A stretch of DNA of 64,000 nt from assembly GCA_963575745.1 (NCBI GenBank), contig CAUYUJ010000048.1, forward strand, positions 310,001 to 374,000, in the 5' to 3' direction. The position numbers and the translations under genes are program-made. This DNA is from Prorocentrum cordatum (taxonomy: Eukaryota). Each line of letters begins with the position of its first letter. Within the stretch, counting starts at the first letter, position 1. Below the pieces are notes generated by a model. It did no database searches, was not told the origin of the DNA, and was given only the letters and a program-made list of their open reading frames with translations. Below, one piece after another: positions 15,625-64,000 of the stretch.

Positions 15625-15755
15625 CTTGGCATCGCTCGGACGTGTGCATTTTTTCTTCGGCGAGGACCATCGAGGAGCATCCTTGATCATTTCGCGAAAG
15701 AGCCACGCACGAAACCGAAAAAAGCACAGGAAATGGACGTCCGAGCGATGGCCAG
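15625..15755 (+). mobile_element. Family A TIR element (~131 bp). Other copies: 36761-36903, 39676-39808, 41996-42128, 46687-46817, 47645-47776, 61033-61168, 63256-63385, 63533-63664; divergent relative 22853-22982
   Basis: TIR CTTGGCATCGCTCGGACGT ... ACGTCCGAGCGATGGCCAG; shared interior ggcgaggaccatcgaggagcatccttgatcattt...ccacgcacgaaaccg. Confidence 0.93.
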
Positions 15756-15826
15756 GTGTGTGTGTGTGTGTGTGGGTGTGTGTGTGTGTGTGTGTCTGTG
15801 TGTGTGTGTGTGTGTTCCAGCTGAAG

Positions 15827-15968
15827 GGCCTGCTTTCTACCACCACCACCACAAGTTGGAGGGAGGGAGTCCTCCTCCTCCACCTACTCCTTCTCCTCCT
15901 GCTCCTCCTCCTCGTCCTCCTCCTCCTTCCCCCCTCCAACTTATGGTGGTGGTGGTGGAAAGCAGGCC
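15827..15968. repeat. ~37-bp inverted repeat enclosing a (CCT)n tract
   Basis: ggcctgctttctaccaccaccaccacaagttggaggg versus ccctccaacttatggtggtggtggtggaaagcaggcc. Confidence 0.8.
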
Positions 15969-18900
15969 CACCACCGGCTTCCTGGCAGTTCCCGTGCCTT
16001 TGGGTCGTTGCCCTTCGCTGAAGGGCAGCTGCAGAGTCCAGGGTGCGGACAGCACCGTGCCCGGGACCCTGGGGAGAGCCCGTGCAGGTCATCGAGTGGA
16101 GGGCCAGGGAGACCGACGACGTGACAATCATAGCGAAGAGAGGGGGATGGAGAGCGGTCAGCTGGTCGAAGTCAATTCCTCTCACTTCCTGTCAACTCCT
16201 GAGAGAAGCGCGTGTGAGAAGTGGGCAGTGTACCGGCAGCCCTCCACGGGCGCGGACTCTCCGCATGCCGCTCGCCGCCCCCTCAGCTGGTCGAAGTGCT
16301 CTCAGAGACGGTCCTGGCCGTCCCTGCGGGCGCCGGGGCGGCACCCCGTCCGCCGGAGAGCTGGCGCGAGCCTGTGCGGCGGGAGGCCGCGCTCCGCGGG
16401 CGGGCGGGCACCGCGTAGTTACCATGGCACTGCCGGGAGCGGCGTGCCCCGCGTGCACGGCCAGCTGGCCGAGGGAGAGTTCTCCCCGAGTCGGTGAGGT
16501 ACCGTCGGGGCGCTGAAGATACGGGGCGCGAAAACGACCACAGCCACTGCTTTTCTTTTGTTGCCGCCTGCCAGCCCGCAGAAACACAGCAGTGGTTGTG
16601 GTCATTTTCGTTGAGCTTGGCTCCAGGGAGATGACCGCAACCGCTGCTTCTTTTCCGGCCGGCTGGAAGGCGGCGCAAACAAGAAGCAGTGGCTGTGGTC
16701 ATTTTCCAGTCCCGCAGAAGAAGGAGCCCTTCTCGTTGGGGAGGGGCTCCGTGTTCCTTCATTGTTGCACAGTGTGCCCCAGGTGTTCTCCAGATTCCCG
16801 ATGGGAAATCAGAGTGTAACTTATGGAAAAAGGGGCCTCGTTCCTTACTTAGGGTTCCTTAGGTCAACGCCCCGATTGTAGTCTCATGGCGCCGACATCG
16901 CAGAGCGGATCTCGTTAGGAAGACAATGGGGATGGACCCGGATCGTCCTGGAGGATTGCTTTCCGGATTTCGAAGTGAATTTCGTGTGGGTTTTTTTTGG
17001 GGGGGCCGGGAATGATGACTAAAAAAATCCTTGTGAAAATCTGTTCGTTTTTCGCTCGCTGTTTCGGGGTTTTGCATTGACAGAATTCCATGCGAACATC
17101 CGCTGCAGCACGTCTGCGCAGGGTCTGCGCAGTGAAAAGTAATTAAGCGTCGGCGGGGACATGAGGGAGTCCCACGGTGTAACCCGGGGGAGTCCTGAAT
17201 CTGCGTTTCATGAAAGCCCCGTGTTTTGCACAGAGCGGGGAATCAGCATTTGGGTCAGCCAGGAGGATCCACGCCTGGTGTTTGAGAGGCTCTGGGACAG
17301 GTATGCGCTGGCCTTGCTGCTGGTTGGCTTCCCTTCGGACGTCCAGCCGTATCGACTTTGATGATGCTGATTGGAACTGTGATATTTAACGGGAGGGCAC
17401 AGCTACGCATATGAGGAGATATCCATACCTGGCGTTTGGAAATTTAGCATACTTAATCGAGGGGCGGGTTGTGCAGACACTGGAGATTCGTGGCTCTGCC
17501 AGACACTGCAGTGACGTGAGAGATGGGGCCAAGCGCTTCGAAGGGTATGAACCCAGAACCCTCGTCCTGGGATTGTGACGGTACTGTTCGAACCATCTCC
17601 GATTCTACCTTGCTTTACACGGAGCTTGTTGTTCGAGTCTCTTGGCTGACGAGCGTCCGCAATCAGCGCTGATAGGCAATGGAACCACCCGCGCGAATGT
17701 TGCACTATGGTGCAATCTTGTGCACATGTGCAGGAACAGCTGAGCACCAAGAGAAACTACCCGTAGACAACCAAGTTGGATGCACCCAGTGGTCTGAGGG
17801 AAATCGCACTGTCCGTTAAACCGTCAACGAGCTGGGAAAGTGACAGCGGTAAGGCAATGGTCTCGGTCCAGCCATGCTGGGCCATCACGCGCAATCACGG
17901 TGTGCTGAAGCGAATTGAACAGCGTTGATAACATGCCGTGATGAGAGGCCCGATGTTGTTGGCACAGGAGCGGGGCGGGGTTCATGATCGGATTTGGTTC
18001 TCTCGCTGCGACGCCGTGTGCTCGGGCTGGTCCCTTCGACAGCCCCGCGGCGGCCCCCTCCCGCTGATAGGAGGCAGCGAACAGGTGCGTACGCGAATCG
18101 GTGCTTTCCCGGGCGTGTGACCTCGGCACGTTTGCGGAGCACCTCGTCCTGCCCCTGGGGCCCTCCGTGGGGCCGTCCTCGGGCCTTCTTCGGGTATTCT
18201 TGGGCATCTCTTGCGCAGTGGGACAGGCTGTTGGGTTGCGCCCAGGAGGTACGACTGTTTTCCGGATCGGCCGTGGCCGAAGCTCAATCCTGACCACCTT
18301 GACATCCTCGCGCCAGGTTTCTATGACCTCGCACCACGAGCCAGCCACGGCGCAGGTCAGTCCAACTCACTCGAGCTCATTTCAGCCCTCACCAGCTAAG
18401 CCTAGATCAATCTACGATCTTTCGTCTCATATAGTTGCACGGCCAGTTCGACAGAAAGAGCGCACAAGAAGAGCATGTGGATCCTGGCGTCGAGTGGGTC
18501 CCGCGCGCACGTCCAGGCACAGGGCGCCAGGAGAGGATGAAGAGGGGCTGGCGAGGGTGATGGAGGGTGATGGGGCAGGGGTGGGGATGATGGTGGGAGG
18601 GGAGGAGGAGTGGATGGTGAGAACGAAGGGCATGGCAGGGGTGGGGGTGATGTTGGGCCGGGGGCAGGCGAAGGGTGCGGCTTCCGTAGCCCTTTCGGGT
18701 GCCCAGCGCGGCCCTTCTTCCCCGGCGGCCGTCTCGCACGCGCGCGCGACCGCCCTTTTGCCGGGGACCTTGCCGGCGAGGCGAGCCCGAGGCGGGGCGC
18801 GTCGCTGCTGCTGCCGCGGCGCCGCTCCCCGAGGCGGCGCCCCCCTCCCCCCCACGGCCGCATGGCGCAGCCGGCGGCGGCCCCGGGGCAGCGGCGAGGC

Positions 18901-19035: not shown

Positions 19036-19210
19036 CTCAGGGGAGGAAGAAAGGTGCCCATATACCGCTGCCCCTCTGCCCGTTTTCTCCGTCTGGGGCC
19101 TCCTGGGAGGTCCTCGTCGCCACCGCTGGCTTCGCCCCGAAAGTCTGATCAGGACGCACCTGGGGAGAGGTCTGGGGAGTAGCGGTATCGGTGCCTTTTG
19201 GTTCCCCCAG
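19036..19210 (+). mobile_element. Family H TIR element (~170 bp). Other copies: ~48391-48560 and ~60231-60403
   Basis: ctcag..gaggaaaaggcacc.atacc ... gtagcggtatcggtgcctttt...cag with shared interior gggcctcctggg..cctcgtc. Confidence 0.85.
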
Positions 19211-19905
19211 TCACGTCGACGCTGAGGAGGAGAAGGAGGAGGAGAAGGAGCAGGCGGAGGAGAAGGAAGGAAGGGTGGAGAGGGAGAAGAGGGACGACGA
19301 TGAAGATCAAGAGGAGGAAGATGAGGAGAAGAAGGAAGAGAAGGAGCAGGAGGAGAAAGAGGAGAAGAAGCAGAGGAAGGAGGAAGAGGAGGAGCGGCGG
19401 CGGCCCCGCCGCGGGCGTTCCGAGGTGGGAGCGGCGCCTGTGGCCCCAGGGTCGGCCAAGATATGGAGCGATCCGCCGTGAAACCGCCGCTCGTTGAGGA
19501 ATCTCGAACGAGCCACGGGGTGTCAGCAATCATAGTGGCGCGGCATTCATCATCTGATCGTGGCCCACGGACACTGCGCGGCCAAAACCAAAGCCCTCGC
19601 AGTACCCGGTTCCGGAGCTGTGGGGGTGGCGGTTGAGGCCCCGTGGCTAGTGACGCAGTGGAGCGGAGACGGAAAAAAAAGGGGAACTAAAAGTGCCATA
19701 AACATAAAATTCGGAGGTCCGCAAACATTCAGAGCGTGAATTACCTACCCGCTTTCGCTTCCAGGCAAAACCAAACCATACCACGCGCCGCCTCGTCAGG
19801 CGGCCTGACCAGCACGGGCCGTAGCTTGGCATCGCTGGGTATCTCTTGGAAGCGAGGGTGGTCAAAAGCGAGGTCGGTTTGCTTGCCCCTTAGGCATCGG
19901 GTAGC

Positions 19906-20085
19906 AAAAAGTGCCACAAACATAAAAACTCGGAGGTCCGCGCGGATTTCTCGGATCGGCGCTGGGGCCCCCCTGCGGCGCCTCCGGAGCCGACCCCGGC
20001 GCGCTCCGCGCGCCAGGGAGGGGGTCCAGCGCCGATCCGAGACATCCGCGCGGACCTCCGAGTTTTATGTTAATGCCACTTTTTG
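19906..20085 (+). mobile_element. Family B hairpin element (~180-215 bp). Other copies: ~26205-26403, 26673-26886, 28322-28532; partial copies at ~19680-19722, 23015-23060 and 30680-30810
   Basis: Long arms ctccgcgcggattt..gatc.gcgc / gcg.gatcc...atccgcgcggag around the core gcgcgctccgcgcgcc.ggg.agggg. Confidence 0.88.
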
Positions 20086-20628
20086 TTCCCCTCAATCAAC
20101 GCTGGGGTCGTCACGACGCAAACCCGGCGTGCGTAACTACCTTGGCCGATCCCGTGGTGCCTCTGCCTCGCTTTCGCCTGCTCGGGCCTCCCAGGACGGG
20201 GCCCTCGTGCGCCGCGGCGGGGCTCGCCATGGAGCCCCGCGGGCCCGGGAGTGGCCCAGAGGGAGTAGGCGCATCCTCAGGGGGGGCGCGGAGGTGACCG
20301 CGCTTCGCGCGTCGCAGTCAGAGCGGCAGCCCTGCTCGAGGCGGGTCGCGCGAGTGTGCGGTGGCGCGAAGGTTGTAATCCCGGAGCATTTGACAAGAGA
20401 CACCCGAGCGTGAGTTTTATTTATACGGGACAATTAGAAAACGTGTTTTCCTACTAATAGGGAAACATAGAGAACAGGTTTACCTATTAATAGGTAAACG
20501 CGCTTTTTCCCTACCTAGGCTCTGCCTAGAAGGGTTCTTACTCTCTTTGCTTAAAGGGCCGGGCAGTGCTAACCTCCCCGGGCGGTTCCCCCAGTCCCCG
20601 CCCCGCGTTTCCCCCAGTCCCCTGGGAG

Positions 20629-22685: not shown

Positions 22686-23402
22686 ACCAGCGTGCCCCCC
22701 CGGGTGCCGGTTGCAGGCCATGCCCTTTGCAGGCCACACCCTGCGGAGTCGCCGAGAGGCTGTCCTTCCCCCGAGACGGGGCCGGGGCGGGCCCGGCCGG
22801 GGGCGGCCCCGGCGGGCGCCCCGGGGGCCCACAGGTCGGGGGCGTCCAATGACTTGGCGTCGCTCGGACGTGCCGTTTTCCCCGGCCAGGGCTATTCGAG
22901 GAGCATGCTGCATCATCTTGCGGAGAAGTACGTGCCCGAGGCCGAACAGTGCATGGGGAATGGGCGTCCGAGCGAGGGCAAGATGAGTCGAGGGAGAGGA
23001 AGCTGCATCGACACGGGCTTTCGGAGCTCCGCGCGGATTTCTGGGATCGGCGCTGGATCTCCTTCCCTGGCGAGCGGAGCGAGCGAGATCCTTAGCACCG
23101 CACCGAACCGCAGATTGATCCTCCTCTTCCTCCTCCTCCTCCTCCTCCTCCTCCTCCTCCTCCTCCTCCTCCTCCTCCTCCTCCTCCTCCTCTTCCTCGT
23201 CCTCCTCCTCTTCCTCGTGCTCCTCCTCCCTGTCCTCCTCCTCCTGCTGCTGCTGCTCCTCCTCCCTGTCCTCCTCCGCCCTTCCACTTTCGAATGCTGC
23301 GGGGGGCTCCAGAGAGGGGTGCTGAGCAACGGGCACGTGCCGGGGTCCTGCTTCGGGGTGCTGCTTCGGGGTGCTGGGCGCGTCAGCGTTTCGCCGGAGG
23401 GG

Positions 23403-23502: not shown

Positions 23503-23634
23503 CGAGGGTGGCCGCATGAGCGGGGCGAGCGGGCCCGCCGCGGAGGACGGGCGGCGCGCCGAGAGGGGGGGGGGGACGGAAGCGGTCGGGGGCAAGGATT
23601 GGTCGGGGGCAGCGATGGCGGGGGATAGGCATTC

Positions 23635-23840
23635 AGAGCCCCGAATCATCAGGGGTAACTCGGGTCAGGGTTAACTCGGGTTTTCGGGAATCCGAACCCG
23701 AGTTACCCTGGGCCCGAGTTACCCCGGATAATTCGGGCGTCCAGAGCCCCACATCATCAGGGGTAACTCGGGTCAGGGCTAACTCGGGTTCCTTTTACGG
23801 GAATCCAAACCCGAGTTACCCCGGATAACTCGGGCGCCCA
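23635..23840. repeat. Tandemly duplicated ~105-bp hairpin unit
   Basis: cagagcccc..atcatcaggggtaactcgggtcaggg ... aacccgagttaccccggataa occurs twice; ggggtaactcggg pairs with cccgagttacccc. Confidence 0.8.
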
Positions 23841-24052
23841 AGGCATAGGGGGGGATGCAGCGACTCCCAATCGCCCATTGATCGCCGATGGGGGCCCGAC
23901 AGCCCCAACCTGCCCGGGAGGGTGCGGAGTCACTGTCGGGGGCCTATCCTTTCGCGGATCTATCGGCGATGTATGGCCGATGCCAAGACGATGCTTCCCC
24001 CCCTATCCCTATCCCTCCCAATCGTTGTTCCTCAAGAGGGGGGGACAGGCAT

Positions 24053-24228
24053 AGGTCAGCCACGCGCAGAGGGGGGTGGGGGGAGGGGGGAGGGCTTCTT
24101 AGAAGCACCCTTGCTTCTTAGAAGGCGCGGGCCTTAGCTACAGATGTAAGGTCGGTGCCTTCTAAGAAGCAGCCTCCTTCTAGGAAGCCCTCCCACCTCT
24201 CTCCACCCCCTCGTGCGCGCCGCCAAAT
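24053..24228 (+). mobile_element. Family J element; second copy at 33563-33740
   Basis: Both copies read ggtc.gccacgcgcagagggggg...gagggcttct..ga...gaagccc/gaggcctccc...tgcgc.ccgccaa. Confidence 0.8.
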
Positions 24229-25787
24229 AGTGGGGAACGCAGCGACCCCAAATCGCCGAGAGGGGGGACGGAAGCGGTCGGGGGCAACGATTGGGGGGAC
24301 AGGCGTAGGGTTAAGTCGGGCATGTCCCTCTACAGGAGGAATCACCAGATGACATCACACCAGAGAAACCCCAATCAGTGGATGGCTTGATCGATAAGGA
24401 GATCGACTGGGAACCTGGGAACCGGGAACCCACCGAAATCGGCCAGGAACCAGGAACCTGGAACCGGGAACCCAGGAACCCAGGAACCCAGCCGGCCTCG
24501 AAAATCGGCCGGACACTTTCGCCAAATCTTTCAATTTCCGCTAGGACCCCTTCAGTGCAAGCACTAATCTGGGAAAGTAATAGAAAATAGTCTGGGGACG
24601 ATTTTTCTATTATTATTTGCCATCTTGGAGTATTCGCTTTCCTCCAAAATCCGCCTGTAGGGGGACATGTCCGACCTAAGCATAGAGGGGTGGATGCAGC
24701 GACCCCCAATCGCCCACTGATCGCCGATAAGGGCCCGATAGCCCCGACCTGCTCGGGAGGGTGCGGCCCATCCTTTCGCCGATCTATCGGCGATGTATGG
24801 TCGATTCCAGGTCGATGTCTCCCCCCCCATGCCAGTCCCCCCCTGAATCTTTGCCCCCCTCTACAGGAGGAATATTCGAAAATATAGTTTGAAATAGTCA
24901 GGGGGCGACTTTTTGAGTATTCTTGATCCTTTTTTGATTATGTTGGGATGTTTTAAAAACTTTCGTCCAGACTCCGGCTGCAGGGGGACACGCCCGACCT
25001 GACTCTAGTGTCGCATGTTGCTATAGAGGTGCCCCCCGGCCCCAAGGTGCCCCCAGGATTTCCAAGGTCGATGCTGCGCCCCCATGCCTATCCCCCCCTA
25101 TCGCTGCCCCTCAAGCGGAGCGAGAGAAGCCCTCGCGCTGTAAAGTGAAGTCGGGCCTGTCCACAGGAGGAATGTTCACAAAGTGGTCAAAACATAGTCT
25201 GGGGACGATTTCTCGAATCTGTTTGACTATTTCTGATTCTTTTTTGTTATGTTTCGTCCAAGATCCGCCTCTAGGGGGACATGCCCGACGTAATTGCACA
25301 TAGAAATCACGGCGGCAAGAGTTTCGCTATGTTCGGCCTCTGGGGGCCCCTATCGGGCCTCGGGGACCGTCACGAAACGATTCGTGATGAAAGACTGGTC
25401 CCGGGGAATGGCTCCAGACCTCTGGGGGTCGACGTCATGTGCAAAGGTCACGACGTCGGATGTCTGGGTCTGGGGACTCCTGGCATCGCCATGAGAAGGA
25501 CACGGCCGGTCCCGAGCGAAGCGGGTCTTGAGGGGTGTCTTTCGCCGTTTTGTTACCGGTGCCCCAGGGCCCGCCACGGGCCCTGGGAGACTGCCAGGGA
25601 GCGAGGCAGGGCGAAGAACAGGTCCCGGGGGAAGGCCCCGAGGTCCAGTGCGTGTTTGTGTGTGTGCGCGTGTGTGTCTGTGTCTGTGTCCGTGTCCGTG
25701 TCCGTGTCTGTGTCTGTGTCTGTGTCTATGTTTGTATCTGTGTCTGTGTCTGTGTCTGTGTCCGTGTCTGTTTGTGTATGGATTGTT

Positions 25788-25836
<49 letters not shown>

Positions 25837-25887
25837 GCGTGTGCCTGTGTGTGGGTGGCGCGCGGGGGCGGCGCTGGCGCTTGGCAG

Positions 25888-28800
25888 GCCATCCGGGAGG
25901 AGGACTGCGCGGGCGTCGCCGCCTTGCAGGCCCAGGTGGCCCGTCTCACCGACGCGCTGGCGCAGGCGCAGAAGGAGGTCCACACGCTCAGTCTCGCGAA
26001 CGCCCAGCTGTCCGAGGACAGGCGGACCATCGGCGAGCGGCAGCGCGTCGTGGAGTCCGACCGGGTGGAGCTGCAGCTGCAGCTCGTGCAGGCCAGGGCG
26101 GCCGCGGAGCAGAGCGAGAGAGAGCGCAGCAGGCTGCAGGAGGCCGAGGACTCGGCGGGCAGGGCCGGCAGGTTGGGTGCCATTGTCGCGTCCGAGGGGG
26201 AGGCTCGAAGTAGAGAAAACGCGATAAGCATAAACTTTTGGCGCTCCGCGCGGATTTCTTTGATCCGCGCCTGGGCCCCTCTGGCGGCGCCTCCGGCGCC
26301 GCCCCTGGGCGCGCTCCGCGCGCCGGGGAGGGGGATTCGGAGCGGATCCAAGATATCCGCGCGGAGCGCCAAACGTTTCTGTTCATGCCGTCTTCTCTTC
26401 AAGAGGCGCAGCTGCGGGCGTCCGAGCGCGCGAGGGAGGCCGCGGAGGCCGCCGCGGCGGCGCTGAGGCGGGAGCTCCAGGCCGTGGAGGGCCGCGCAGC
26501 GGAGGCCGAGCGCCGGGCGGCGGAGGCGGAGAGCCGCGCGACCGAGGCTGCGGCCGCGGCTGCGGCCGTGGAGCACGCGGGGAGCAGCAGCGCCGCGGCC
26601 GCCGAGGCGCACGCGCTGAGGCTGGAGGTGCAGCTGGCAAGGCGCCGGGCGGAGGAGGCGGAGCGGAGCATGTCGCAGGAGAAAACAGCGGCACGAGCAT
26701 CAACTTTTGGCGCTCCGCGCGGATTTCTCAGATCCGCGCTGGCCCCCCACCCCCCCCCCCGGCGGCGCCTCCAGCGCCGCCCCCGGGCGCGCTCCGCGCG
26801 CCGGGGAGGGGGGGCCCAGCGCGGATCCAAGGAATCCGCGCGGAGAGCGCCAAAAGTTAGTGTTCATGGCGTGCTTTCTTCTTCGAAGCATGGACGCGGG
26901 GCGTGAGGCCGCGAGGCTGCAGGCGACGGTGACGGAGGCTGCGAGCCGCAGCAGCGAGGTTGCCCATCAGCAGGCGAGCGGCGCGGAGCAAAAGATGGGT
27001 TCGGTGGCGCGGCGGCGTGGGCGCGTGAGCTGCTCGCGTGGGGTCGCGCGTGAGCGCCCGCGTGAGCGCCCGCGTAGCCGCTGTCGCGTGCCGCGCCGGC
27101 GGCCCGCGCAGGTCGCCGCGTAAGGTCGCTACGTCATCTCCCGTCCCACACCCCCTCGAGTCATGGAAGAAATCACGACGGGAGGTTTTTTCATTTTTTA
27201 GGCCCCTGGGGGCCCCTACGCGGCCTCGGGACCGTCAAAAGAACTACTCAGGACGAAACATCGGTCCTGGGGAATGAGTCCAAGCCTCTGGGGGTCGACG
27301 TCATGAAAAAAATCATGAAGTCGGGGGTCTGGGTATATGTAGCGTGCCGCGACGGCGGCCTGCGTAGGTCGCCGCGTAAGGTCGCTACTTCATCTTCCAC
27401 ATAAGGACCCGTTTTTGGGCATTGCTCAGGTGGCCGTGGCTCTGGCGGACGTGGGGGCGCGCGTGAGTGTCCCGTGCCGCGCTGGCGGCCCGCGTAGGTC
27501 GCCGCGTAAGGTCGCTAGGTCATCTCCCGCATAAGGATCCGTTTTTGGGCAGGGCTCAGGTGGCCGTGGCTCTGGCGGACGTGGGGGCGCGCGTGAGCGC
27601 CCTCGTATCCACTGTCCCGTGCCGCGCTGGCGGCCCGCGTAGGTCGCCGCGTAAGGTGGCTACGTCATCTCCCGTAGAAGGATCCGTTTTGGGGCGTGGC
27701 CCAGGTGGCCGTGGCTCTGGCGGACGTGGAGAGGCTGAAGCAGGAGCTGCAGGCTGCCGACGGGAGGGCGGCAGACGCGGCAGCCCAGGTGGATCGGTTG
27801 AAGCAGGAGCTCGAAGCTTCGAATCAGAGGGCGGCGTCTGCGGTGGCCCACGTGGAGCAGCTCAAGCGGGAGATGCTGGCCCTGGAGAGGCGCGCCGCGG
27901 CGGCGGACGTGCGCGCTTCGGAGGCCGCGTGCCACCTCACCGCCGTGAAGGCGGAGAAGGAGCGCCGCGTGGCGGAGGCCGAGGCCATCTGCGCGGCCGA
28001 AGCGGAGAGGCTCCACCGAGACATCCAGGCGGGCACGCTGCGTCTTCGGGGGGCCTCGGCCGTCCCCTGTGAGTGGGCACCTCTCGCCTCGGTCCCGTGC
28101 CCGGCGCGGGCTCGGCGCGGATTCGGCGCGGAGTTTTGGCGCGGCTTCGACGCGGGCCCGGCGCGGAGGCGACGCGGAGGCGGCGAGCCCGACGCGGGCC
28201 GTACGCGGACTGGGGCGCGATGGGGCAGGCAAGGCCCCCCGAAGACGCAGCGCACGAAGGTGGCCCAGAGCCATGCCGAGGAGGCTTCAGAAGCCGCGCA
28301 CCTCGCCGCCGCCGCCGAGGCCTCGAAGAAGAAGAAGAAGCACAAAACCCACAAACATAAACTGTGGACGCTCCGCGCGGATTTTTCTTGGATCCTCGGC
28401 GCCTGGGCCCCCAAAAGCGACGCCCCCGGGCGCGCTCCGCGCGCCCAGGGAGGGGGGCCCAGCGCGGATCCAAGGAATCCGCGCGGAGAGCGCCAACAGT
28501 TTGGGCTTGCGTGGCCCGTTCTCTTCCTCCAGCAGAGGCGGAGGCGCAGAGCCAGGTCGCGGAGCTGAGGCAGCGCCTCGCGGCGGCGGAGCGCCGCGCG
28601 GCGGCCGCGGACGCCTGCTCGGAGGAGGCCGCCCGCCGAACAGCTGCCGCGGAGCTCCGCGCGACGGAGGCGGCGGTGGCCGAGTGCAACGCGGCCCAGT
28701 CCGGGTCGGCCATGGTCGAGCGGTTCTCGGGGCTCAAGAGACCCAGGCCCCTCGAGTCATGAAAAAATCGCGACGGGAGTTTTTTCCATTCTTTCGGCCT

Positions 28801-46969: not shown

Positions 46970-47023
46970 ACGATGTCGACGACGATGGACACGACGGCGA
47001 CGGACACGACGAGCACGACGAGC

Positions 47024-47063
<40 letters not shown>

Positions 47064-54790: not shown

Positions 54791-56049
54791 TGCTGCTCCT
54801 GTCGCTTTCTCGCTGGCGGCTGGGCGTCGGCGCTAGTCGGCGGCGCCGCCGCGTTGTGGTTCAGGGTGGCGCGCGCCACCCCGCGATTCGCCTGAGCAGG
54901 CAAACGTTTCTCTTAATCGCACGAGCCCCATTGATTCGTTGAGCACAAGCTGACGTCAAGAGAGGAGGAGGGAGCTTGGTCTTATGCACCATGCGTGAGG
55001 AGTGCGCGGTGGCACTGCAGGAGGGAGGAGGCGAAGGAGGAGGAGGAGGAGGAGGAGGAGGAGGAGGGGCAGGAGGAGGAGGAGGAGGGTGACGAAGACG
55101 ACGACTTCGGATCCTGACCCCCAGACGTCCGAGGTTCCCAGAGGCTTGTGGGTGGGCGGCCTGAAGAGGGCCAACCAAAAACTTTAAAACCGGCCGAAGA
55201 CCAGCACACGCCTCCTGCCCCCGACCCTCGCCTCCCCCCCCCTTAAGCCCCCACGACGGGAGGTTTTTTTCTATGTTTCCTTCGGCCCTCGGGAAGCCTC
55301 ACCGGGCCCCAGGGTCCCTCACGGGACGACTCCGGATGAGAGAAGCCGGTCCTGCCACGGGGAAGGGGCCCGGACCTCCCAAGGGGTCGTCGTGTCTGAA
55401 ACATCATGGCGTCGGGGGTCTGTGCCCGCCCCCCCCCCCAGCTCAGGAAAGCATGCAATAGCCTCCCCTCTCCTCCTCCTCTCCCCTCAATCTCCTCCTC
55501 CGCCTCCTCCTCCTCCTCCTCCTCCTCCTCCTCCTCCTCCTCCTCCTCCTCCTCCTCCTCCTCCTCCTCCTCCTCCTCCTCCAACCACGCAGCAACATTC
55601 ATCCCCGACCCTCACCTTCCCCCCCCCCCCAAGCTCAGGGAAGCATGCAAGAGCCTCCCTCCCCTGAACCCTCACCGCCCCCCTATTCCTCCACGCAGAA
55701 GGCTCCCGCCTCGACCCGCCTCGGCCCTCCTCCTCCCAGAGGTGGAGGGAGGAGATCCGTGAGCACTGAGGAGGGAGCACGTATTCATCCAGGATGCGGG
55801 CCTAGCAGGATTTTCTTCTCCATGTCCGCTTCGGGGAAATTTAAGCCGCGGGCGTTTTGTTGGTGAACAGCTGACCCCCTGGCTCCGCTGAAACTGGGCC
55901 CCGGCAGTGCTCCACTCTCCCCAACCCGTTCCCCACGATCCAGCCACCCCCCCACCGACCCCTCAACGCGATCATGCAGATGTTGGGTGTTCTTCTGCAC
56001 GGCACGCGCTGTGGCAGGACAAGCTAGGAAAGAAGGGTAGCACCATTGA

Positions 56050-56945: not shown

Positions 56946-57299
56946 TCTGCGTTTTCCATGGCCCATCGGCACGACGAAAGCTGGTGCAGGGCGCGCCCGC
57001 GCGGGCTCTGGCACTCCTGATGCCGCCCTGAGGACTGCACTGCTTGCGCCACAACGGCTACGGGATCTTCCCGGGAGGGGGAGGTCACCACCCACCAAAC
57101 CACCCCGACCCAACCCGAAGGCCTCAATTTGCCCTCCATTCCAGCGTGGGGGGGGGGGGTCGGGGAACACTGAACAAAACACATATGGAACCCGTAACCC
57201 CCCCCAACCCGAAATTGGGATCTTCGGGTTGGGTTGGGGGTGGCCTGGTAGGCAGTCAGGAGGACGACCACGACGACACCGACGTCGACGACGACGGGC

Positions 57300-60225
57300 G
57301 CGGGGGGCCCCTGCGCGCGGCGAGGGAGCGAGAGAGACCGCCCCGCCCAGTGTGGGTCGGCTGCCTGGGCGCCCTCCGCGGCCGCCCCTCCGTGCTCGCG
57401 CAGGACCGGCCGAGCGCGCGCGCGCGCGCGGGCTCGGCGCGCGCGCGCGGCGACGCCGAGGCGGCCGACGGCGACGGCCGACGAGGACGGACGGCGGCGG
57501 GCGACGACGGCCAGAGGAGGAGCAGGTGCCGCTGCCGCTGCTCGGCCGCGAGGGGCCCCGGGCCGCCCCGCGCCCGGAGTCGCCTCGAGGTGCTGAGAGG
57601 TGCCGGTCGGGGCGCGCCGCCGGAGAGGTCCGGGGCGGAGCGGCGTCGGCATCGTCTTGCGTCCGCGCGCTCGGCGGCGGCGGCGGCGACGGGCGGCGGG
57701 CGCCGGCAGGGCGACGGAGGGGCACGCCAGGCCCTCCTCATCGCTGTACTCTCGTGCCTCCCCATCTCTCCCCCGCCTCCCCATCTCTCCCCCTCCTCCT
57801 CCTCCTCCTCCTCCTCCTCCTCCTCCTCCTCCTCCTCCTCCTCCTCCTCCTCCTGCTCCTCCTCCTGCTCCTCCTCCCTCTCCTCCTCCTCCTCCTCCTC
57901 TCTCCCTCCCCTCCCCGCTTCCTCTGTCAGTCCTCTCCCTGTGGTCCCGTCCTCCCCTCGCCTCCTCCGCTCCCGCTTCTGCGCTGCCGCCGCCTCCCTC
58001 GTCGTGTACCTCGTTTCCCCTGCCACTCCTCTGGCTCCAACCCTCGTCTCGTGGGTGTATTGCTCTTGGCCTCAAGTCACGCCGGGCCCAACTGGGCCGC
58101 CGGACTGGGCCCAATCCGGCCTGTGTGGCCACATGCGCGCTCTTCACCTGACAAGTATAACCATGCTGGCCTCCCGCGCGCCAAACGGGCACCATCCCGT
58201 CAAATCATGTCACGCTTGTGCGTCGTGTACGTGGCTATGTTCAAGCAGTACCATGGGGAACCCCGCATGCGCCAGCTCCAAGCAACGCAAGTCTCCCCGC
58301 GCCGAAAGGGCACCATTTCTACCAACCCCTGGATTCACAAGTTGGGATCGGGATAATGCGAGGGGGCCGCACCCTGGGCCCTCCCTCGTCGATTGACCCT
58401 CGAGCGTTGATCTTCGACCGACCCCAAGATGACTCCAGGACAGGCCCGTGTTCTGGACGACGGATCTGCACAGCAGGGCGTTGAACGCTGCAGCGGAAAG
58501 TTCTGTTTAGAACCGTGCGCACCCTGAGGGAAATTGGCTACCCCGAAAGAGGCCAGAGGATGTTTCTTGAGGAAGTCCCAAGCAAAATCGCCAGTCTCTG
58601 GCGGCATCGGCATCGATCTTAATATTTTGCCGATGAAGTCCCTAGAGAAATCGCTAGTTTCAGACGGCATGGCAAATTTTCAGATGGCCCTGGAAGGCGA
58701 CCTGGTTTTTGTTGAGGAAGTCTCAGTCTCCATCCCCTCCTCGCGTGCTGCATCCCGTCGTTCCTCCTTTCCGTCATCTCTCCCTCGGGACGCACAGGCA
58801 CAGACACATACATCAGCTATGCTATGACAAATAGTTGGAGCACTGGGCGGAGTCACAAGCGGACTCGGATGATCTCAGATGGTCAAGCAGATGGGCTGGG
58901 AGGCAGACGTATGCACAGACACCGACGCTTTGTGCCGAAACCGACGCGGAAGCAGACGCATCGATAGACAGGATGTGCCAACCTGTACGCCTGCACGTGC
59001 GCGGAAACGGGCAGACGGGCAAGCAGGCATGCGGGGGCAGGCGAGGTGCCGCCGGTGAGGAGATGACGAGGGCCGTGCACGCACTGCCGGGCATCCGTGA
59101 GCAGTTCGCCGACGACCCAGTCACCAGCGTCAGCATTGACGAGGGCAACGGCTGGGCATTCGTCGAGCTGGCCAGCAGGGAGCTGGCTGGCGCTCTGGTC
59201 TCAGTGGGCCGGCTGTGGCTGAGCAGCGGGGGGCGAGTGAGCGTGGGATGGCCGGCGGCCCAGGCATGGGGGAGCAAAAAGATACTACATGGCACCATTG
59301 CTCACCACCCACCAAAACACCCCAGCCCAACCCGAAGGCTTCGATTTGCCTTCCATTTCTAGTTTGGGGGGTTCGGGGAATATTGAACAAACACATATGA
59401 AACCCGTACCCCCCTCCCCCAACCCGAAGTTCGGGTCTTCGGGTTGGCTTGGGGTGGTCTGGTAATTAGGCAGTCAGGTGCTCTCCAGACCTCAACCCTC
59501 GGGCCAGAGTTTCGGGGCCAGCCGGAGCGACGAGGGCTCCCCCCCCTTCTTTGGAGGCCCCAATGGGCGAGACCGAGGGAAGGGCATGGGCCGTATGGGT
59601 GTCGTCATTGTTTCGGTGGTTTGAAGATGGGGTCTGCAGGCATGGGCCCCGAGGATCGGAAGAGAGCCAAGCGTGGATCTCCGCCGTTTGAGGCACCTCG
59701 GCCGCAGGACCCCATCGCTCAGGACCTCATCTGTGAACCACCGCTTCGTGCTGAGAACCAGCCACAAGTGGGAGACGTGGTCCTCCCCCCCCTGGGGGGC
59801 CCCATCGTGGGGCGACGAGCTCTATGCAGATCCACTGCTCCTGGCCGGGCCCACCCTGGGCCCAGGGGCTGTGTCTACGCCGTCCCTGGCCAGGCGCCGC
59901 GGCTACGCACAGATCTCGTCGCCCTACGTCGGCGGAGTAAGGAGCGCAGCTCCCCTCGTCGTGGCTGATCCGCTGGCCCCCTCGGAAGGCGCAGCGAGCG
60001 CCAGCACGCCTGGCCTCCCCGGACCCGGCCAGGCGTCAGCCCGGGGCCGGGCACGCCGCCGCGCCAGACTGCGGCGTCGACCTCTGGCTGGGGGCCCCGC
60101 CGGAGAGCGCCATCGGGGAGAGGCTGGACTGCGAGATCTACATGCGCTGCGCCGGCAGGCTCGAGTCGATGCCCGTGTGGCGCTCCGCAGGAGGGGAGGA
60201 GCGCGAGGTCACGGTAGGGATACGG
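57300..60225 (+). CDS. RRM-containing RNA-binding protein resembling U2AF65-type RRMs, partial. Predicted exons: ~57300-57403, 59060-59263, 59640-?, ~60100-60225
   Basis: RNP2-like VWVGCL joins via GA-AG intron 57404-59059 to EMTRAVHALPGIREQFADDPVTSVSIDEGNGWAFVELASRELA, which contains RNP1-like NGWAFVEL. The next intron, 59264-59639, is GC-AG and bounded by the direct repeat caggcatggg. Confidence 0.65.
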
Positions 60226-60877
60226 CGTTCCTCAGAGGAGGAAAAGGCACCCATACCTCTGCCCTCCCATCGTTCTCCCCTTTTTCGGGCCTCCTGGGCC
60301 TCCCTCGTCACCACCGCGGGATTCGCCTCGAAGTTCTGGTCCGAACGCACCCCGGGAGAGGTCCGGGGAGCTTGGTAGCGGTACACCTTCTGGCTTCCCC
60401 GCAGTTCCAGTATCTCCAGGGCCAGCTGCCGTCCCAAATCAGGGGCATACAAAAACGCCCCTACCCTGGTTTACGAGGCGCTGTGCGCTAAAACCCCTGT
60501 GGGTTGACAGGGTCATCCCTGCGTGATGTGCCGCGTCCTGGCGGCTCTAGGCTTTGCGGGCTCCCAGGAGGTTTACAGACCGCGCGCTTGCAACCCAGGG
60601 CAGGGCCGTTTTGTTGATCCTTCAACCACAAAAGCTGCAGAGGCGAGGGCCAGCAGGCACTCTCCATGGAGATCCTGCAGTGCGTGTCCTGGGCCGACGC
60701 CCCCGCCCGACTCGCGAGCGAGGGGAGCCCCGCGGGGGCGAGGGGCCCCGCGGGGAGGTGCTCGCGGCCGCTCGCGGGCTCTCCCGGGGCGCCGCCCGCG
60801 CCCCGGGGAGCGCCGAGGAGCGGGCGCGAGTGAAGCGCACTGGGCCCTCGGGAGGAGTGCCCCCTGGGGGCCAGTTA

Positions 60878-61015: not shown

Positions 61016-62109
61016 AATGAAGCGCACTGGGCCCTGGCATCGCTCGGACGTGTGCATATTTTTTCTCGGCGAGGACCATCGAGGAGCATCCTTGATCATT
61101 TTTGGCGAAGAAGCCACGCACGAAACCGAAACAAAAACACGGGGAATGGACGTCCGAGCGATGGCGAGGGGCCCGGGTGGGTGCCCCTGGGGGCCAGGAC
61201 CTCTCTCCGCGAGGGCCGTCTCGCCCACGCCAAGGTACGCTTAAGTCGGGCATATCCCTCTGCAGGCACAGTCAAGAGTAGGTAAGAGAATGGTGTGGGG
61301 ACGAGTTTCTGTTCTCTTCGGGCTATGTTTTTATTTTTTGTTGGCCCCCTTTTTTATGATTGTTCCCAAACCCGCCTGTAGGAGGACATGCCCCATCTAA
61401 AGGTACGCGCTCCTGGAGCTCTTCCAGTCCCTGCCCGCCTACCACCTCGCGTACGGCGACCGGGCCCGCCCGATCCCCATCCGCCCCCAGCGGCGTGGTC
61501 TCTTTGCGTGGCCACCAGAGGCCGTCGGTCGGCGCTTCAGTGAGCTTCCACAGTCCACGCTGCTGCCACCTCCATCTCTGGATTCGGCGGCCACATGCGA
61601 AGCCTACCCCACCACCCCACTTCGCTCGGATGGTCCCGGACGAAGTGAACCCCGCCTCCCCCCTCAGAAATCGTGGGTTGGCGGGGTATATAGGGTCGAA
61701 TGTAGCCGCCTATGGATGCCGAGGGCGTACGGTATGGATAGAGCGCTTGGCTCCAGAGGTCAGATTATTAGATCACTGCCCCCACACTGCCCCTGGCCAG
61801 CCGAGGCGTCACCAGACGAATCGCCCAGAGGCGATAATTACAGCAATCAAAGGAGAGCGGTCTGGTCGGCTCACCTTGCCTCGGCGCGGCTTGCCTGGCC
61901 GCCCCCTGGTCTCTAGTGGTCGGCCGTCTGGCCTGGCTGCTCCCTTGCCTCCCCCTTCGCCCACTGGTGGGCGTGCCGACCACGGCGCACCCCCCCGTCC
62001 GACGCCTGGTGCCAAAGGCGAGCGTCTCACGGCGCCGCGACAGAAGCGCGACCCGCGTCCTCCGGGCCGCTCGGCTGCCCGCACGACGAGGCTGTGCGAG
62101 AGGGGCGGC

Positions 62110-62632
62110 TCCTCAGAGGGCGGGGGGCCTCTCAGAAAGGCACGGGGGGCCTCTGACTGCGAAGGCTTCGGAGCAGTCTTGGCTGGCAGGAGGAGCTTCC
62201 CCGCAGAAGCACCCGCGGCCTTCTCGGGAGGCGGGGGGCCTCTCAGAAAGGCACAGGGGGCCTCTGACTGCGAAGGCTTCGTAGCAGTCTTGGCTGACAG
62301 GAGGAGCTCCCCCGCAGAATGCCCCCGCGGCCTTCTCAGGAGGCGGGGGGCCTCTCGGAAAGGCACAGGGGGCCTCTGACTGCGGAGGCTTCGCAGCAGT
62401 CTTACAGTCGGGGCGCTGAGGAAGGAACCATTCTCGTTGGGGAGGGGCTCGGTGTTCCTTAGTCGTTTTGCAGTTCGCCTTTGGTTTTGCTTAGGGCTTC
62501 GATGGGACATCGAAGTTACACTTATTGGAAAAAGGGGCCTCGTTCCTTCTTTAGGGCTCCTTGGGTCCACGCCCCGACTGTAGCTGACAGGAGGAGCTCC
62601 CCCGCAGAAGCCCCCGCGGCCCTCTCGGGAGG
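62110..62632. repeat. ~111-bp tandem repeat, 3 copies, the third interrupted by family G
   Basis: ggggggcctctc.gaaaggcac.gggggcctctgactgcg occurs at ~62122, 62233 and 62345. Confidence 0.9.
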
Positions 62633-64000
62633 CCGGCCCCTTTGTTGTGCGCGCCGCCAGCTCTCTTCGGGCATGCGCCCGATCTCCCGGGCCGACCCGA
62701 TCTGCCGCGCGCCGCTGGCTGCGGCCCCGCCGCAGGGCGCTTCTTCCTGGGCATGCGCGCGGGCGCCTCGGGCGCTGGGGGGTGCCAGGAAAACCAGCTG
62801 CGCAGGCCACTTCTCAGGAGGGGGAACAGAAAAACACAGACACAATGAATCGTCGATTCCCCAGAAAAGATTGGAACATGTGGGAAGTGGGGGGGGGAAG
62901 ACAAAAACCAAGAAAATATGGGAAAATATGGGGAATATGTTTATGTGTGTGTATTTATGTGTGTGTCCCAGGGCCCCTTCAAATTCGCTATCCCCCCCTT
63001 TGCTGTTTCCCCCCTCCGTCCGACCCGAGTCCCCCCAGATGTTCGTCCATCGTCCGCCACTGAGTGCCCCCGAGTGCACCCTTCTGGGGGGGGCCAGAGA
63101 TAGGGGGGCTGACATGGGGGGGTGGATGCATCGACCTCGAATGGTTGACACACCAGCGCTGCATCGACGATGTCAGGGCGACGTGCCGATGATGTGCAGG
63201 CGATGCCTGTGGCGGTCTGCATCCACGATGCGCGGGCGATGCATCGGCCACTCGACTAAGCATCGCCCGGACGTGTGCATTTTTCGTTCGGCGAGGACCA
63301 TCGAGGAGCATCCTTGATCATTTGGCGAAGAAGCCACGCACGAAACCAAAAAAGCACAGGGAATGGACGTCCGAGCGATGCCCAACCGAGCGAGGTCGCT
63401 GCCCACCCCGCCCGAATCGCTGCCCCTCGCGAGTGTGCGCCCTGGGAGGCTGCCCCCCCCCCTCCCTGGGTGTGTGCCTCGGGCAGCGCCTGCACGGAGC
63501 TGCTCGGCCCTCGGCCGAGCGGGAACGATGCCCTCGGCATCGCTCGGACGTGTGCATTTTTTTCACGGCGAGAACCATCGAGGAGCATCCTTGATCATTT
63601 GGCGAAGAAGCCACGCACGAAACCGACAAAAATCACAGGGAGTGGACGTCCGAGCGATGGCCAGGGCGGGGGGGAGGGGGGGGCGTGGGCACCCGTGTGG
63701 CGGGGGTGGGCGGAGCGAGGCCGCCGGCCATCGGCACCTGCTGCTATTTGTGTTCGGGCGCTGCCCTGCTGGCAACGGCTGGCGCCTCTGCAGCCTCACG
63801 AGAGGGGTCCCACCGCGCCTCGGGTTTCCAGTCGGGCACGTCCTGCGGAGGCGGCTCCTGGAAGGATCACGACAAACATGGCCAGAGCACATGCAGACAT
63901 GTTACCGGCCTGGAACATATCCCTATCCTTATGCTGGGCACCTCCTCATCACGATGCCAATCTTAGGGATTCCCTCATCTTTTGAGGGCGAACCCCTCAG

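What the first reader, a model, noticed from the sequence alone, without database searches (positions are those of the whole stretch)
15625..63664. TIR elements are co-oriented within families across ~48 kb
Seen: asymmetric interiors show the same orientation for family A (9/9), D (8/8), B (5/5 scorable), E, F, G, H and I (3/3 each), and J and L (2/2). Only C (2 of 7 reversed) and M break the rule. All reconstructed intact genes are on +. Known: cut-and-paste elements with TIRs generally insert in either orientation, so chance for A alone is 1/256 and for D alone 1/128. Inference: insertion or retention is coupled to transcription or splicing (an RNA-intermediate or strand-biased mechanism, or selection for the spliceable orientation), even for copies deep inside larger introns.
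Basis: partly seen in the sequence, partly recalled or inferred. Interest (0 to 1): 0.85.

Follow-up and report, generated by a model that had tools for sequence, protein, structure and literature searches.

The report
Co-oriented introner transposons in dinoflagellate genes
The window carries dozens of small hairpin-ended transposons that nearly all point the same way as the one RNA-confirmed gene, and several are removed from its mRNA as exact introns; this is the known "introner" phenomenon of dinoflagellates, here reaching copies that do not form introns themselves.

Summary
Profile searches on both strands give 50 of 56 copies on + at E<=1e-6. Counts are A 10/10, F7 8/8, F4 5/6, F8 5/7, F3 3/4, three families 3/3 and four families 2/2. 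Chance of so few minority copies is 3.6e-6, or 1e-4 if every weak hit I dropped is counted. Flanks and target-site duplications differ between copies, so these are independent insertions.

RNA contigs from four runs define one + strand gene at 23.5-31.5 kb with ten introns. Each intron is bounded by a 3-9 nt direct repeat, and nine read GC/GA/GT..AG|G, the dinoflagellate pattern. Splicing restores a 703-codon frame. Four introns are single F4 or F7 elements, and three more hold nested elements.

These are introner-like MITEs. Single-orientation intron creation is already published for dinoflagellate and Micromonas introners. Retention of the sense orientation is the best-supported cause. An RNA intermediate is not supported.

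Two points go beyond splice-site logic. Nested copies are co-oriented too, and so are family A copies, whose duplications cannot supply splice sites. All four reversed copies are truncated or split. + polarity is shown for one gene only.

The parts
23503..31475 (+). RNA-verified gene (5' end not reached). Exons: ..23545, 25888-26202, 26406-26668, 26889-26973, 27705-28028, 28260-28319, 28538-28722, 29340-29704, 29881-29938, 30105-30459, 30921-31475. The 703-codon open frame ends at 30977.
   Evidence: RNA contigs of 2.6 kb from runs X1, X4 and X5, and pieces from X17. Spliced ORF with GC3 0.92.
23546..25887 (+). Intron 1 (2342 nt, GA..AG|G, 3-nt boundary repeat). Holds nested F5 x2, F6, F7 x3 and F8.
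   Evidence: Joint seen in X1 and X17; shift analysis; element hits.
26203..26405 (+). Intron 2. It is one F4 element (26205-26400) plus the TSD GAGGC. Both splice sites, AG|GC, come from the TSD.
26669..26888 (+). Intron 3. It is one F4 element (26674-26881) with TSD AGCATG. It is removed precisely, but no GH..AG reading exists; the options are CA..AG, GC..AA or GT..AT.
   Evidence: Joint in 4 of 4 runs; all shifts listed.
26974..27704 (+). Intron 4 (GC..AG|G). Holds nested F8 (27176-27333) and a 130-bp tandem repeat.
28029..28259 (+). Intron 5 (GC..AG|G). Single-copy element with 21-nt perfect TIRs at 28036-28056 and 28232-28252.
28320..28537 (+). Intron 6 (GC..AG|G). F4-type element (28342-28525) with TSD GAGGC.
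28723..29339 (+). Intron 7 (GT..AG|G). The host ends resemble F10. Holds nested F8 (28771-28928).
29705..29880 (+). Intron 8 (GA..AG|G, boundary repeat AAGGA). Single-copy.
29939..30104 (+). Intron 9. It is one F7 element (29947-30101) with the 9-nt repeat AGGCTGGAG; reads GC..AG|G.
30460..30920 (+). Intron 10 (GC..AG|G, repeat GAGGCG). F4-type host (30668-30812) with nested F9 (30491-30640) and a (CTC)n run.
15625..15755 (+). Family A copy (about 132 bp, 19-nt TIR CTTGGCATCGCTCGGACGT, 4-bp TSD). TSD GTGT, inside a (GT)n run.
22853..22982 (+). Family A copy, diverged, TSD ATGA.
36762..36901 (+). Family A copy, diverged, TSD TCCT. The flanking bins have RNA depth near 0.
39676..39808 (+). Family A copy, TSD CAGC.
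41997..42126 (+). Family A copy, TSD ATTT.
46687..46817 (+). Family A copy, TSD TTCT. The RNA folds as a hairpin closed by the TIR stem.
47645..47776 (+). Family A copy, flanked by a 60-61-bp direct duplication (47585-47644 and 47777-47836) in place of a 4-bp TSD.
61033..61168 (+). Family A copy, TSD GGGC.
63257..63384 (+). Family A copy, TSD TCGA/CCGA (3 of 4 match).
63533..63664 (+). Family A copy, no clear TSD.
24574..24677 (+). F7 copy (3' part), nested in intron 1.
24856..25000 (+). F7 copy, nested in intron 1.
25148..25289 (+). F7 copy, nested in intron 1, no splice-type TSD.
34628..34773 (+). F7 copy.
35380..35550 (+). F7 copy.
51195..51355 (+). F7 copy.
61242..61398 (+). F7 copy with the 9-nt repeat AAGGTACGC, which would give AG|GT..AG|G on +. 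No RNA was laid here.
19903..20087 (+). F4 copy.
22995..23084 (-). F4 partial copy, reversed (profile positions 105-194 only).
25310..25468 (+). F8 copy, nested in intron 1.
31857..32297 (-). F8 copy, reversed, split by the + oriented F10 copy at 32002-32239. Lies about 400 nt past the mRNA 3' end.
32933..33060 (+). F8 copy with an internal deletion; abuts F9 at 33062.
49540..49868 (-). F8 copy, reversed and diverged, split by the + oriented F12 copy at 49657-49814 (F12 TSD CGAGGCCC).
55253..55422 (+). F8 copy, diverged.
16713..16881 (+). F2 copy. Termini CAGTC..GACTG; flanking TA in 2 of 3 copies, as in Tc1/mariner-type MITEs.
45384..45552 (+). F2 copy.
62414..62583 (+). F2 copy.
19060..19218 (+). 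F3 copy.
48411..48568 (+). F3 copy.
60252..60400 (+). F3 copy.
59479..59589 (-). F3 copy, reversed, diverged and partial (E 4e-8).
35657..35822 (+). F11 copy.
41697..41866 (+). F11 copy.
62820..62980 (+). F11 copy.
57096..57258 (+). F12 copy, boundary repeat GGAGG.
59313..59472 (+). F12 copy, TSD TGCTC (not splice-type).
23844..24019 (+). F5 copy, nested in intron 1. The second copy is at 24681-24842 (+).
24054..24226 (+). F6 copy, nested in intron 1. The second copy is at 33564-33738 (+).
33062..33210 (+). F9 copy. The other copy, 30491-30640, is nested in intron 10.
39953..40195 (+). F10 copy. The other copy, 32002-32239, is inserted in a reversed F8.
16530..16706 (.). F13: two adjacent copies in opposite orientation. 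This family breaks the rule.

Best explanation
The repeats are introner-like elements: short (130-250 bp), non-coding DNA transposons with terminal inverted repeats. They belong to several transposition types, to judge from their target-site duplications of TA, 4, 5-6 and 8-9 bp. The genome is dinoflagellate-type and G+C-rich.

Shown:
- A copy that lands in an exon is transcribed with the gene.
- The duplicated target (often ..AGG[C/T/A]..) supplies AG|GY at both ends, or one splice site comes from the element end.
- Element plus one target copy is removed exactly, and the reading frame is restored.

Inferred:
- The TIRs can pair in the RNA and bring the two ends together.
- Each family's interior is asymmetric, so only one orientation relative to transcription is tolerated. 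Antisense copies are lost because they splice badly, create cryptic signals, or pair with sense copies in the same long transcript.
- Dinoflagellate genes lie in long one-directional arrays, so 'sense' means the same DNA strand over tens of kb. That gives family-wide co-orientation across 48 kb.
For: Counts and independence
- 50 of 56 copies are on +; P=3.6e-6 for the within-family minority count, and 1e-4 in the least favourable count.
- Inside the RNA-verified gene alone: F4 4/4, F7 4/4, F8 3/3, F5 2/2, P=0.002.
- Flanks and TSDs differ between copies, so the insertions are independent.

Splicing
- RNA contigs from 4 runs skip ten stretches, each bounded by a 3-9 nt direct repeat.
- 9 of 10 can be read GC/GA/GT..AG followed by G on +.
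- The joined exons give a 703-codon frame with GC3 0.92.
- Introns 2, 3 and 6 are single F4 elements and intron 9 is a single F7 element.

Cause of the bias
- The bias is shared by families with four different TSD lengths. A host-level filter explains this more simply than several unrelated transposases each having a strand preference.
- All 4 reversed copies are truncated or split by a later + oriented insertion, against 3 of 48 + copies (Fisher P=1.3e-4).
- No family copy lies in the tandem-repeat-rich first 15.6 kb.

Published precedent
- Dinoflagellate ILE classes create introns in one orientation only. One has a 4-nt TSD plus CT...AG, the anatomy of family A; another has an AGGH TSD supplying both sites, as in F4. 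The authors note a bias to one orientation in all classes.
- Micromonas introners occur only in the sense orientation.
Against: - Spliceability does not obviously depend on orientation. In F4 both splice dinucleotides come from the TSD. In family A both orientations would begin with CT after the TSD and end in AG.
- I found no shared branch-point-like motif in the ten verified introns and no common base skew across families.
- Nested copies inside verified introns should be nearly neutral under a pure splicing filter, yet all are +: F7 x3, F8 x3, F9, F5 x2, F6.
- 7 of the 8 family A copies with a clear 4-bp duplication have one (ATGA, TCCT, CAGC, ATTT, TTCT, GGGC, TCGA/CCGA) that does not fit the published GHNN rule, so most A copies probably do not form introns, yet A is 10/10.
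- Transcription polarity is shown for one gene only. Compositional and ORF-based attempts to call strand elsewhere were not discriminating.
- One window without a strand switch cannot separate transcription direction from replication direction or from a local founder effect.
Confidence: 0.58

Rival explanations
1. Strand-biased insertion. Integration is coupled to transcription or to replication direction, for example by use of the exposed non-template or lagging strand in one-directional arrays. Copies would then enter already co-oriented, whether or not they form introns.
For: - Nested copies in verified introns and family A copies with non-splice TSDs are co-oriented.
- No orientation-specific splice motif was found.
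Against: - At least four TSD lengths imply different transposases, and all of them would need the same strand preference.
- Reversed copies do exist, and all four are damaged. That looks like survival after inactivation.
- Classical TIR/TSD cut-and-paste integration has no known strand sense (my own knowledge, not from a call).
Confidence: 0.25
2. RNA-mediated spread: reverse splicing of the excised element into transcripts, followed by reverse transcription and recombination. This would automatically give sense-only copies.
For: - The pattern is sense-only.
- The same argument was made for Micromonas introners (passage read).
Against: - There are TIRs and family-specific TSDs at independent sites.
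- Copies occur with TSDs that contain no splice site and inside other elements.
- Reversed copies exist.
- Reverse splicing would not duplicate 4-9 bp of target.
Confidence: 0.04
3. Local duplication or gene conversion. The copies would be co-oriented because they arose by tandem or segmental duplication of a few founders in this region.
For: - Some local duplications exist: 130-bp and 137-bp tandem arrays, and a 60-61-bp duplication around one A copy.
- The two F5 copies lie 660 bp apart among F7 pieces.
Against: - For nearly all families, similarity ends at the element termini.
- Family A copies have different TSDs and unrelated flanks.
- Copies are spread over 48 kb and across two scaffold gaps.
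Confidence: 0.04
4. Family A, and perhaps others, are not introns at all. They would be sense-oriented elements of intergenic or untranslated regions with a role in RNA processing, for example supplying a hairpin plus an AG acceptor. Orientation would then be kept by function.
For: - No A copy lies inside the verified 8-kb gene, although it holds more than 20 other elements. A copies flank it at 22853 and 36762.
- A TSDs are not splice-type.
- RNA depth beside A36762 is near zero.
Against: - There is no direct evidence of any processing site at A.
- A's anatomy (4-nt TSD, CT start, AG end) is that of a published intron-forming class.
- No relic spliced-leader motif was found in the window.
Confidence: 0.07

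Closest known systems
Introner-like elements (ILEs) of dinoflagellates (Polarella glacialis, Symbiodiniaceae; Roy et al., bioRxiv 10.1101/2020.10.14.339549, later Curr Biol 2023)
   Same: - Multi-copy short elements with TIRs and TSDs that make up whole introns.
- 5' GC/GA/GT and 3' AG followed by G.
- Splice sites recruited from the TSD (AGGH) or from TSD plus element end. One class has a 4-nt TSD, CT at +5/+6 and a terminal AG, like family A.
- Many coexisting families with different TSD lengths.
- Some classes create introns in one orientation only, and a bias is reported in all classes.
   Different: - No sequence comparison with the published families was possible. Their dataset is a supplement that I could not see.
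- The host here is much more G+C-rich.
- The published surveys start from annotated introns. In the later pipelines, secondary insertions into existing introns are filtered out. Co-orientation of nested or non-intron copies is therefore not described in the text I read.
Introner elements reported in the Prorocentrum cordatum genome (Dougan et al., bioRxiv 10.1101/2022.07.25.501386)
   Same: A high-G+C (59.7%) free-living dinoflagellate with long introns enriched in elements that have inverted repeats of 8-20 nt and direct repeats of 3-5 nt at intron ends, and with mostly unidirectional genes (passages read).
   Different: - Identity of the window's organism is not established.
- That paper detects elements by pattern, not by family, and the passages I read say nothing about orientation.
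- Its Supplementary Tables 1-2 were not available to me.
Micromonas pusilla introner elements (Worden 2009; Verhelst 2013; Simmons 2015)
   Same: Repeated introns found only in transcribed regions and only in the sense orientation. The same inference, that mobility is linked to transcription or splicing, was drawn from this.
   Different: Green alga with canonical GT-AG splicing and few families. Each copy is itself an intron. No homology to these elements is expected.
Amoebophrya non-canonical introners (Farhat et al. 2021, PMC7789003)
   Same: IR plus DR architecture at intron ends, a hairpin that brings the exon ends together, non-canonical boundaries, and co-oriented gene blocks. Intron 3 here likewise has no canonical reading.
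   Different: Here 9 of 10 verified introns are canonical for dinoflagellates. Families are well defined by sequence, whereas Amoebophrya showed few family-specific IRs.
MITEs (Stowaway/Tc1-mariner-like, hAT-like and other non-autonomous TIR transposons)
   Same: Size, TIRs, TSDs and absence of coding capacity. F2 has CAGT termini and flanking TA.
   Different: To my knowledge, ordinary MITEs are not reported to be nearly 100% co-oriented with host transcription, and they are not spliced as exact introns.

Membership tests
Introner / introner-like element (ILE) | Many similar copies at unrelated sites in one genome | tested here: met
   12 families with 2-10 copies in 48 kb and unrelated flanks. 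Very high RNA-contig depth over F4, F7 and F8 suggests many more copies elsewhere.
Introner / introner-like element (ILE) | A copy constitutes an entire spliceosomal intron and is removed from mRNA | tested here: met
   Introns 2, 3 and 6 (F4) and intron 9 (F7) are skipped exactly in RNA contigs of 4 runs, and the frame is restored. Not shown for A, F2, F3, F8, F11 or F12.
Introner / introner-like element (ILE) | Splice sites supplied by the element end and/or the target-site duplication | tested here: met
   GAGGC, AGGCTGGAG and GAGGCG repeats give AG|GC at both ends.
Introner / introner-like element (ILE) | Evidence of recent intron gain (orthologue or strain lacking the intron) | not testable with these tools
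   No genome or relatives are held. Protein searches found no homologues.
Introner / introner-like element (ILE) | Sense orientation relative to the host gene (a property of many, not all, classes) | tested here: met
   In the one verified gene, 13 of 13 family copies are +. Elsewhere the gene strand is not verified.
Non-autonomous TIR DNA transposon (MITE) | Terminal inverted repeats, a target-site duplication of fixed length per family, small size, no ORF | tested here: met
   - A: 19-nt TIR with a 4-bp TSD in 8 of 10 copies.
- F7: 8-9 bp. F4 and F12: 5-6 bp.
- F8, F3, F11, F9 and F10: TSDs not resolved.
Non-autonomous TIR DNA transposon (MITE) | A cognate autonomous element encoding a transposase | tested here: not met
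   No transposase domain in any ORF >=115-120 aa on either strand of the window (273 ORFs scanned). The rest of the genome could not be searched.
Dinoflagellate nuclear gene | 5' GC/GA/GT, 3' AG followed by G, and repeated sequence at intron boundaries | tested here: met
   9 of 10 introns. These features are as described.
Dinoflagellate nuclear gene | Spliced-leader relic or trans-splicing signal | tested here: not met
   A 15-nt spliced-leader core recalled from memory gave 0 matches with up to 2 mismatches. Absence of relics does not exclude a dinoflagellate.
SINE / retroposon (RNA intermediate) | Poly(A) or simple-repeat tail, no TIR, variable TSD | tested here: not met
   TIRs are present and no A-tails are seen at the element ends.

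The most novel reading that the evidence does not exclude
The orientation rule is not only a by-product of intron formation. Copies that cannot form introns are held to the same strand as the intron-forming copies. This includes copies nested in older introners and family A, whose duplications carry no splice site. It holds across at least four transposition types. The only reversed copies are broken or split by later sense-oriented insertions.

This would mean that dinoflagellate one-directional arrays impose a transcription-direction filter or targeting on all short hairpin transposons. One possible filter is purging of intact antisense copies because they pair with sense copies in long primary transcripts. 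The alternative is strand-specific integration.

Such a rule could be used to read transcription direction from repeats alone, and it would constrain how introners arise.
Probability: 0.25. Interest if true: 0.7.

Novelty: new member of a known kind. Interest (0 to 1): 0.4.

Why it matters
Introners are currently the best-supported source of large-scale intron gain, and dinoflagellates are the extreme case. This window gives a compact worked example. All ten introns of one gene carry transposon marks, and one of them is spliced without canonical dinucleotides.

The extension of the orientation bias to nested and non-intron copies, if general, bears on an open question that the papers I read do not settle: is the sense bias of introners made at insertion or by selection? 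Their pipelines discard nested insertions.

It also offers a practical rule: repeat orientation could serve as a proxy for transcription direction in poorly annotated dinoflagellate assemblies.

Tried and rejected
- **Earlier findings of the scan.** Nothing by place, sequence or words.
- **Pfam on long ORFs.** 137 + strand and 136 - strand ORFs of >=115-120 aa were scanned. Only sub-threshold, low-complexity hits came back.
- **Independent loci.**
0 of 120 matched the A profile or seven other family profiles, so all were chance matches.
  - 19-nt (A) and 24-nt (F7) patterns in viral contigs gave 0 matches.
- **Protein route to more gene models.**
  - An 85-aa candidate exon next to A39676 gave 0 hits in 1.84 billion representatives.
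  - A verified 121-aa exon gave 0 hits among longer proteins.
  - The library therefore offers no transcript-derived proteins to map onto the window.
- **Calling strand outside the verified gene.**
  - A codon-usage log-odds model gave 39 + versus 28 - segments but is dominated by trinucleotide repeats.
  - Junction-spanning ORF lengths after excision are long in all six frames, even for verified introns.
  - A GC-periodicity sign test had the expected sign in only 17 of 23 periodic windows in verified exons and found few coding-like windows elsewhere.
  - None of these is used as evidence.
- **Strict scan for boundary repeat + AG|GH + 12/14 TIR.** It failed to recover most verified introns and returned 14 + and 7 - candidates, mostly in repeats. 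Rejected as too crude.
- **Orientation-specific signal.** No consistent AT or GC skew across families, and no shared motif upstream of the ten 3' splice sites by eye.
- **RNA folding asymmetry.** The + strand RNA is predicted more stable in 36 of 48 sense copies (Wilcoxon P=3e-4). Copies within a family are not independent, and only 9 of 12 families go that way, which is not significant. The three reversed copies that were folded (of four) follow their family, not the genomic strand. It stays a lead only.
- **Spliced-leader relic search.** 0 matches.
- **Published Curr Biol version of Roy et al.** Not held.
- **RNA cover.** The runs each held at most 0.19 of the sampled words of the 10-kb stretch searched. 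Stretches without RNA cover are not taken as untranscribed.

Full report
**What the window is.** The sequence is G+C-rich (0.45-0.71 per 2 kb). It is full of microsatellites and tandem arrays and has two 100-N scaffold gaps. No whole genome is held. None of 273 long ORFs on either strand has a Pfam domain above threshold.

**Checking the observation.**
- Self-BLAST with tandem arrays set aside shows many dispersed 130-250 bp repeats. Nearly every pairwise match between different loci is +/+.
- The clearest family, A, has ten copies. All align full-length on + at 73-94% identity, with a 19-nt terminal inverted repeat and unrelated flanks.
- I built a profile for each of 12 families and searched both strands of the whole window. 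At E<=1e-6 the counts are A 10+/0-, F7 8/0, F4 5/1, F8 5/2, F2 3/0, F3 3/1, F11 3/0, F12 3/0, and F5, F6, F9, F10 2/0 each. Two small inverted pairs (F13, and 60963/63945) add 1/1 each.
- That is 50 of 56 copies on +. The chance of a summed minority of 6 or fewer is 3.6e-6.
- I dropped weak hits with E>1e-6, and several of these are on -. Counting them all in the least favourable way gives 10 of 63 and P=1e-4.
- The near-palindromic F4 is still clearly oriented: + scores exceed - scores by 34-108 bits.
- No family copy lies in the first 15.6 kb.

**Independent insertions, not duplications.**
- Similarity ends at the element termini.
- Family A copies carry different 4-bp target-site duplications: GTGT, ATGA, TCCT, CAGC, ATTT, TTCT, GGGC, and TCGA/CCGA. 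Two copies lack a clear one.
- F7 copies have 8-9 bp duplications (AGGCTGGAG, AAGGTACGC). F4 and F12 have 5-8 bp (GAGGC, AGCATG, CGAGGCCC, TGCTC). F2 has CAGT termini flanked by TA.
- Several transposition types are therefore present.

**RNA evidence.**
- Public runs each hold up to 0.19 of the sampled words of a 10-kb stretch, including marine poly(A) metatranscriptomes.
- I laid four runs on 23503-38990. Contigs of about 2.6 kb in three runs, and pieces in the fourth, join eleven blocks and skip ten stretches.
- Every skipped stretch is bounded by a 3-9 nt direct repeat. Sliding the cut within that repeat gives GC..AG (six), GA..AG (two) or GT..AG (one), always followed by G.
- Intron 3, with repeat AGCATG, has no such reading; the options are CA..AG, GC..AA or GT..AT. 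It is nevertheless removed precisely in all four runs.
- The joined exons carry a 703-codon open frame with GC3 0.92 ending at 30977. The gene is therefore on + and the introns are real.
- This splice pattern and the boundary repeats are those described for dinoflagellates. High G+C, introner-rich long introns and unidirectional genes match the published description of Prorocentrum cordatum. I did not establish the organism.

**Elements and introns.**
- Introns 2, 3 and 6 are single F4 elements and intron 9 is a single F7 element.
- Intron 5 is a single-copy element with perfect 21-nt TIRs.
- Intron 10 is an F4-type host with F9 nested in it. Intron 7 has F10-like ends with F8 nested. Intron 4 holds a nested F8.
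- The 2.3-kb intron 1 holds F5 x2, F6, F7 x3 and F8.
- In F4 introns the duplication GAGGC supplies AG|GC at both ends, so both splice sites come from the target.
- Family A folds as a hairpin closed by its TIR stem.
- Within this one verified gene, 13 of 13 family copies are + (P=0.002).

**How this compares with what is known.**
- Roy et al. (preprint, parts 1-2 of 4 read) describe dinoflagellate introner-like elements with TIRs and TSDs.
  - One class has a 4-nt TSD, CT at +5/+6 and a terminal AG, and creates introns in one orientation only. This is the anatomy of family A.
  - Another class takes both sites from an AGGH duplication, as F4 does.
  - Other classes work in both orientations, but with a bias towards one orientation in all classes.
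- Micromonas introners are found only in the sense orientation.
- The finding is therefore a new instance of a known kind.

**What goes beyond the known explanation.**
- The splice dinucleotides are orientation-neutral in F4 and in A.
- I found no common skew and no shared motif that would make one orientation spliceable.
- Nested copies in verified introns are all +.
- 7 of the 8 family A copies with a clear 4-bp duplication have one that does not fit the GHNN rule, yet A is 10/10. No A copy lies in the verified gene, and the RNA depth beside A36762 is near zero.
- The surveys I read start from annotated introns and filter out secondary insertions. They do not address these classes.
- All four reversed copies are damaged. 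Two F8 copies are split by + oriented F10 and F12 insertions, and the F3 and F4 copies are partial. Only 3 of 48 + copies are damaged (Fisher P=1.3e-4).
- This pattern, and the sharing of the bias by families with different TSD lengths, favours a host-level filter over a property of any one transposase.
- With one window and no strand switch, insertion bias cannot be excluded.

**Limits.**
- + polarity is shown for one gene only. My compositional and ORF-based attempts to call strand elsewhere failed.
- Attempts to find independent loci or homologous proteins gave nothing.
- The predicted greater stability of sense-strand RNA (36 of 48 copies) does not hold at family level (9 of 12) and is only a lead.
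- Supplements listing the published introner families were not available to me. They may already contain these families.

**Verdict.** This is a new member of a known kind. The open sub-question, co-orientation of non-intron copies, is worth a genome-wide test.

Noticed in passing
window 26667-26892: Intron 3 is a single F4 element with target duplication AGCATG. It is removed precisely in RNA contigs of all four runs. No placement of the cut gives a dinoflagellate-canonical GC/GA/GT..AG pair; only CA..AG, GC..AA or GT..AT are possible.
   Followed up: partly
window 47585-47836: One family A copy (47645-47776) is flanked by a 60-61 bp direct duplication at 93% identity instead of the usual 4-bp duplication. 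The origin is unclear: aberrant repair, or insertion at the junction of a tandem duplication.
   Followed up: partly
window 31857-32297 and 49540-49868: Both reversed F8 copies are interrupted by a + oriented element of another family (F10 at 32002-32239, F12 at 49657-49814). None of the five + oriented F8 copies is interrupted.
   Followed up: partly
window 1-15600: The first 15.6 kb holds no copy of any of the 12 families. It is dominated by long trinucleotide arrays ((AGT)n/(GTA)n at 4715-6433, 8456-10416 and 11394-12696) and by 160-bp tandem repeats.
   Followed up: no
window 51539-53450: A 137-bp unit is repeated 14 times at 90% identity. Another 11-bp unit (TTAGCTTTAGC) is repeated about 77 times at 20631-21478.
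   Followed up: no
window 23504-30977 (spliced): The verified gene encodes an alanine-, glutamate- and arginine-rich protein of at least 703 residues. Its exon-containing ORFs have no Pfam domain, and one exon (121 aa) has no match among longer proteins in the large protein library.
   Followed up: partly
all family copies: The predicted RNA fold of the + strand is more stable than that of the - strand in 36 of 48 sense-oriented copies (mean 4 kcal/mol). The effect belongs to families (9 of 12), and reversed copies follow their family.
   Followed up: partly
window 16530-16706: Two adjacent copies of a short, about 80-bp hairpin element lie in opposite orientation, directly upstream of an F2 copy. 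This family breaks the co-orientation rule.
   Followed up: no
window 16713-16881, 45384-45552, 62414-62583: Family F2 has CAGT...ACTG termini with flanking TA, as in Tc1/mariner-type MITEs. In all three copies the base after the right-hand TA is G, which gives ...TAG at the 3' side.
   Followed up: no
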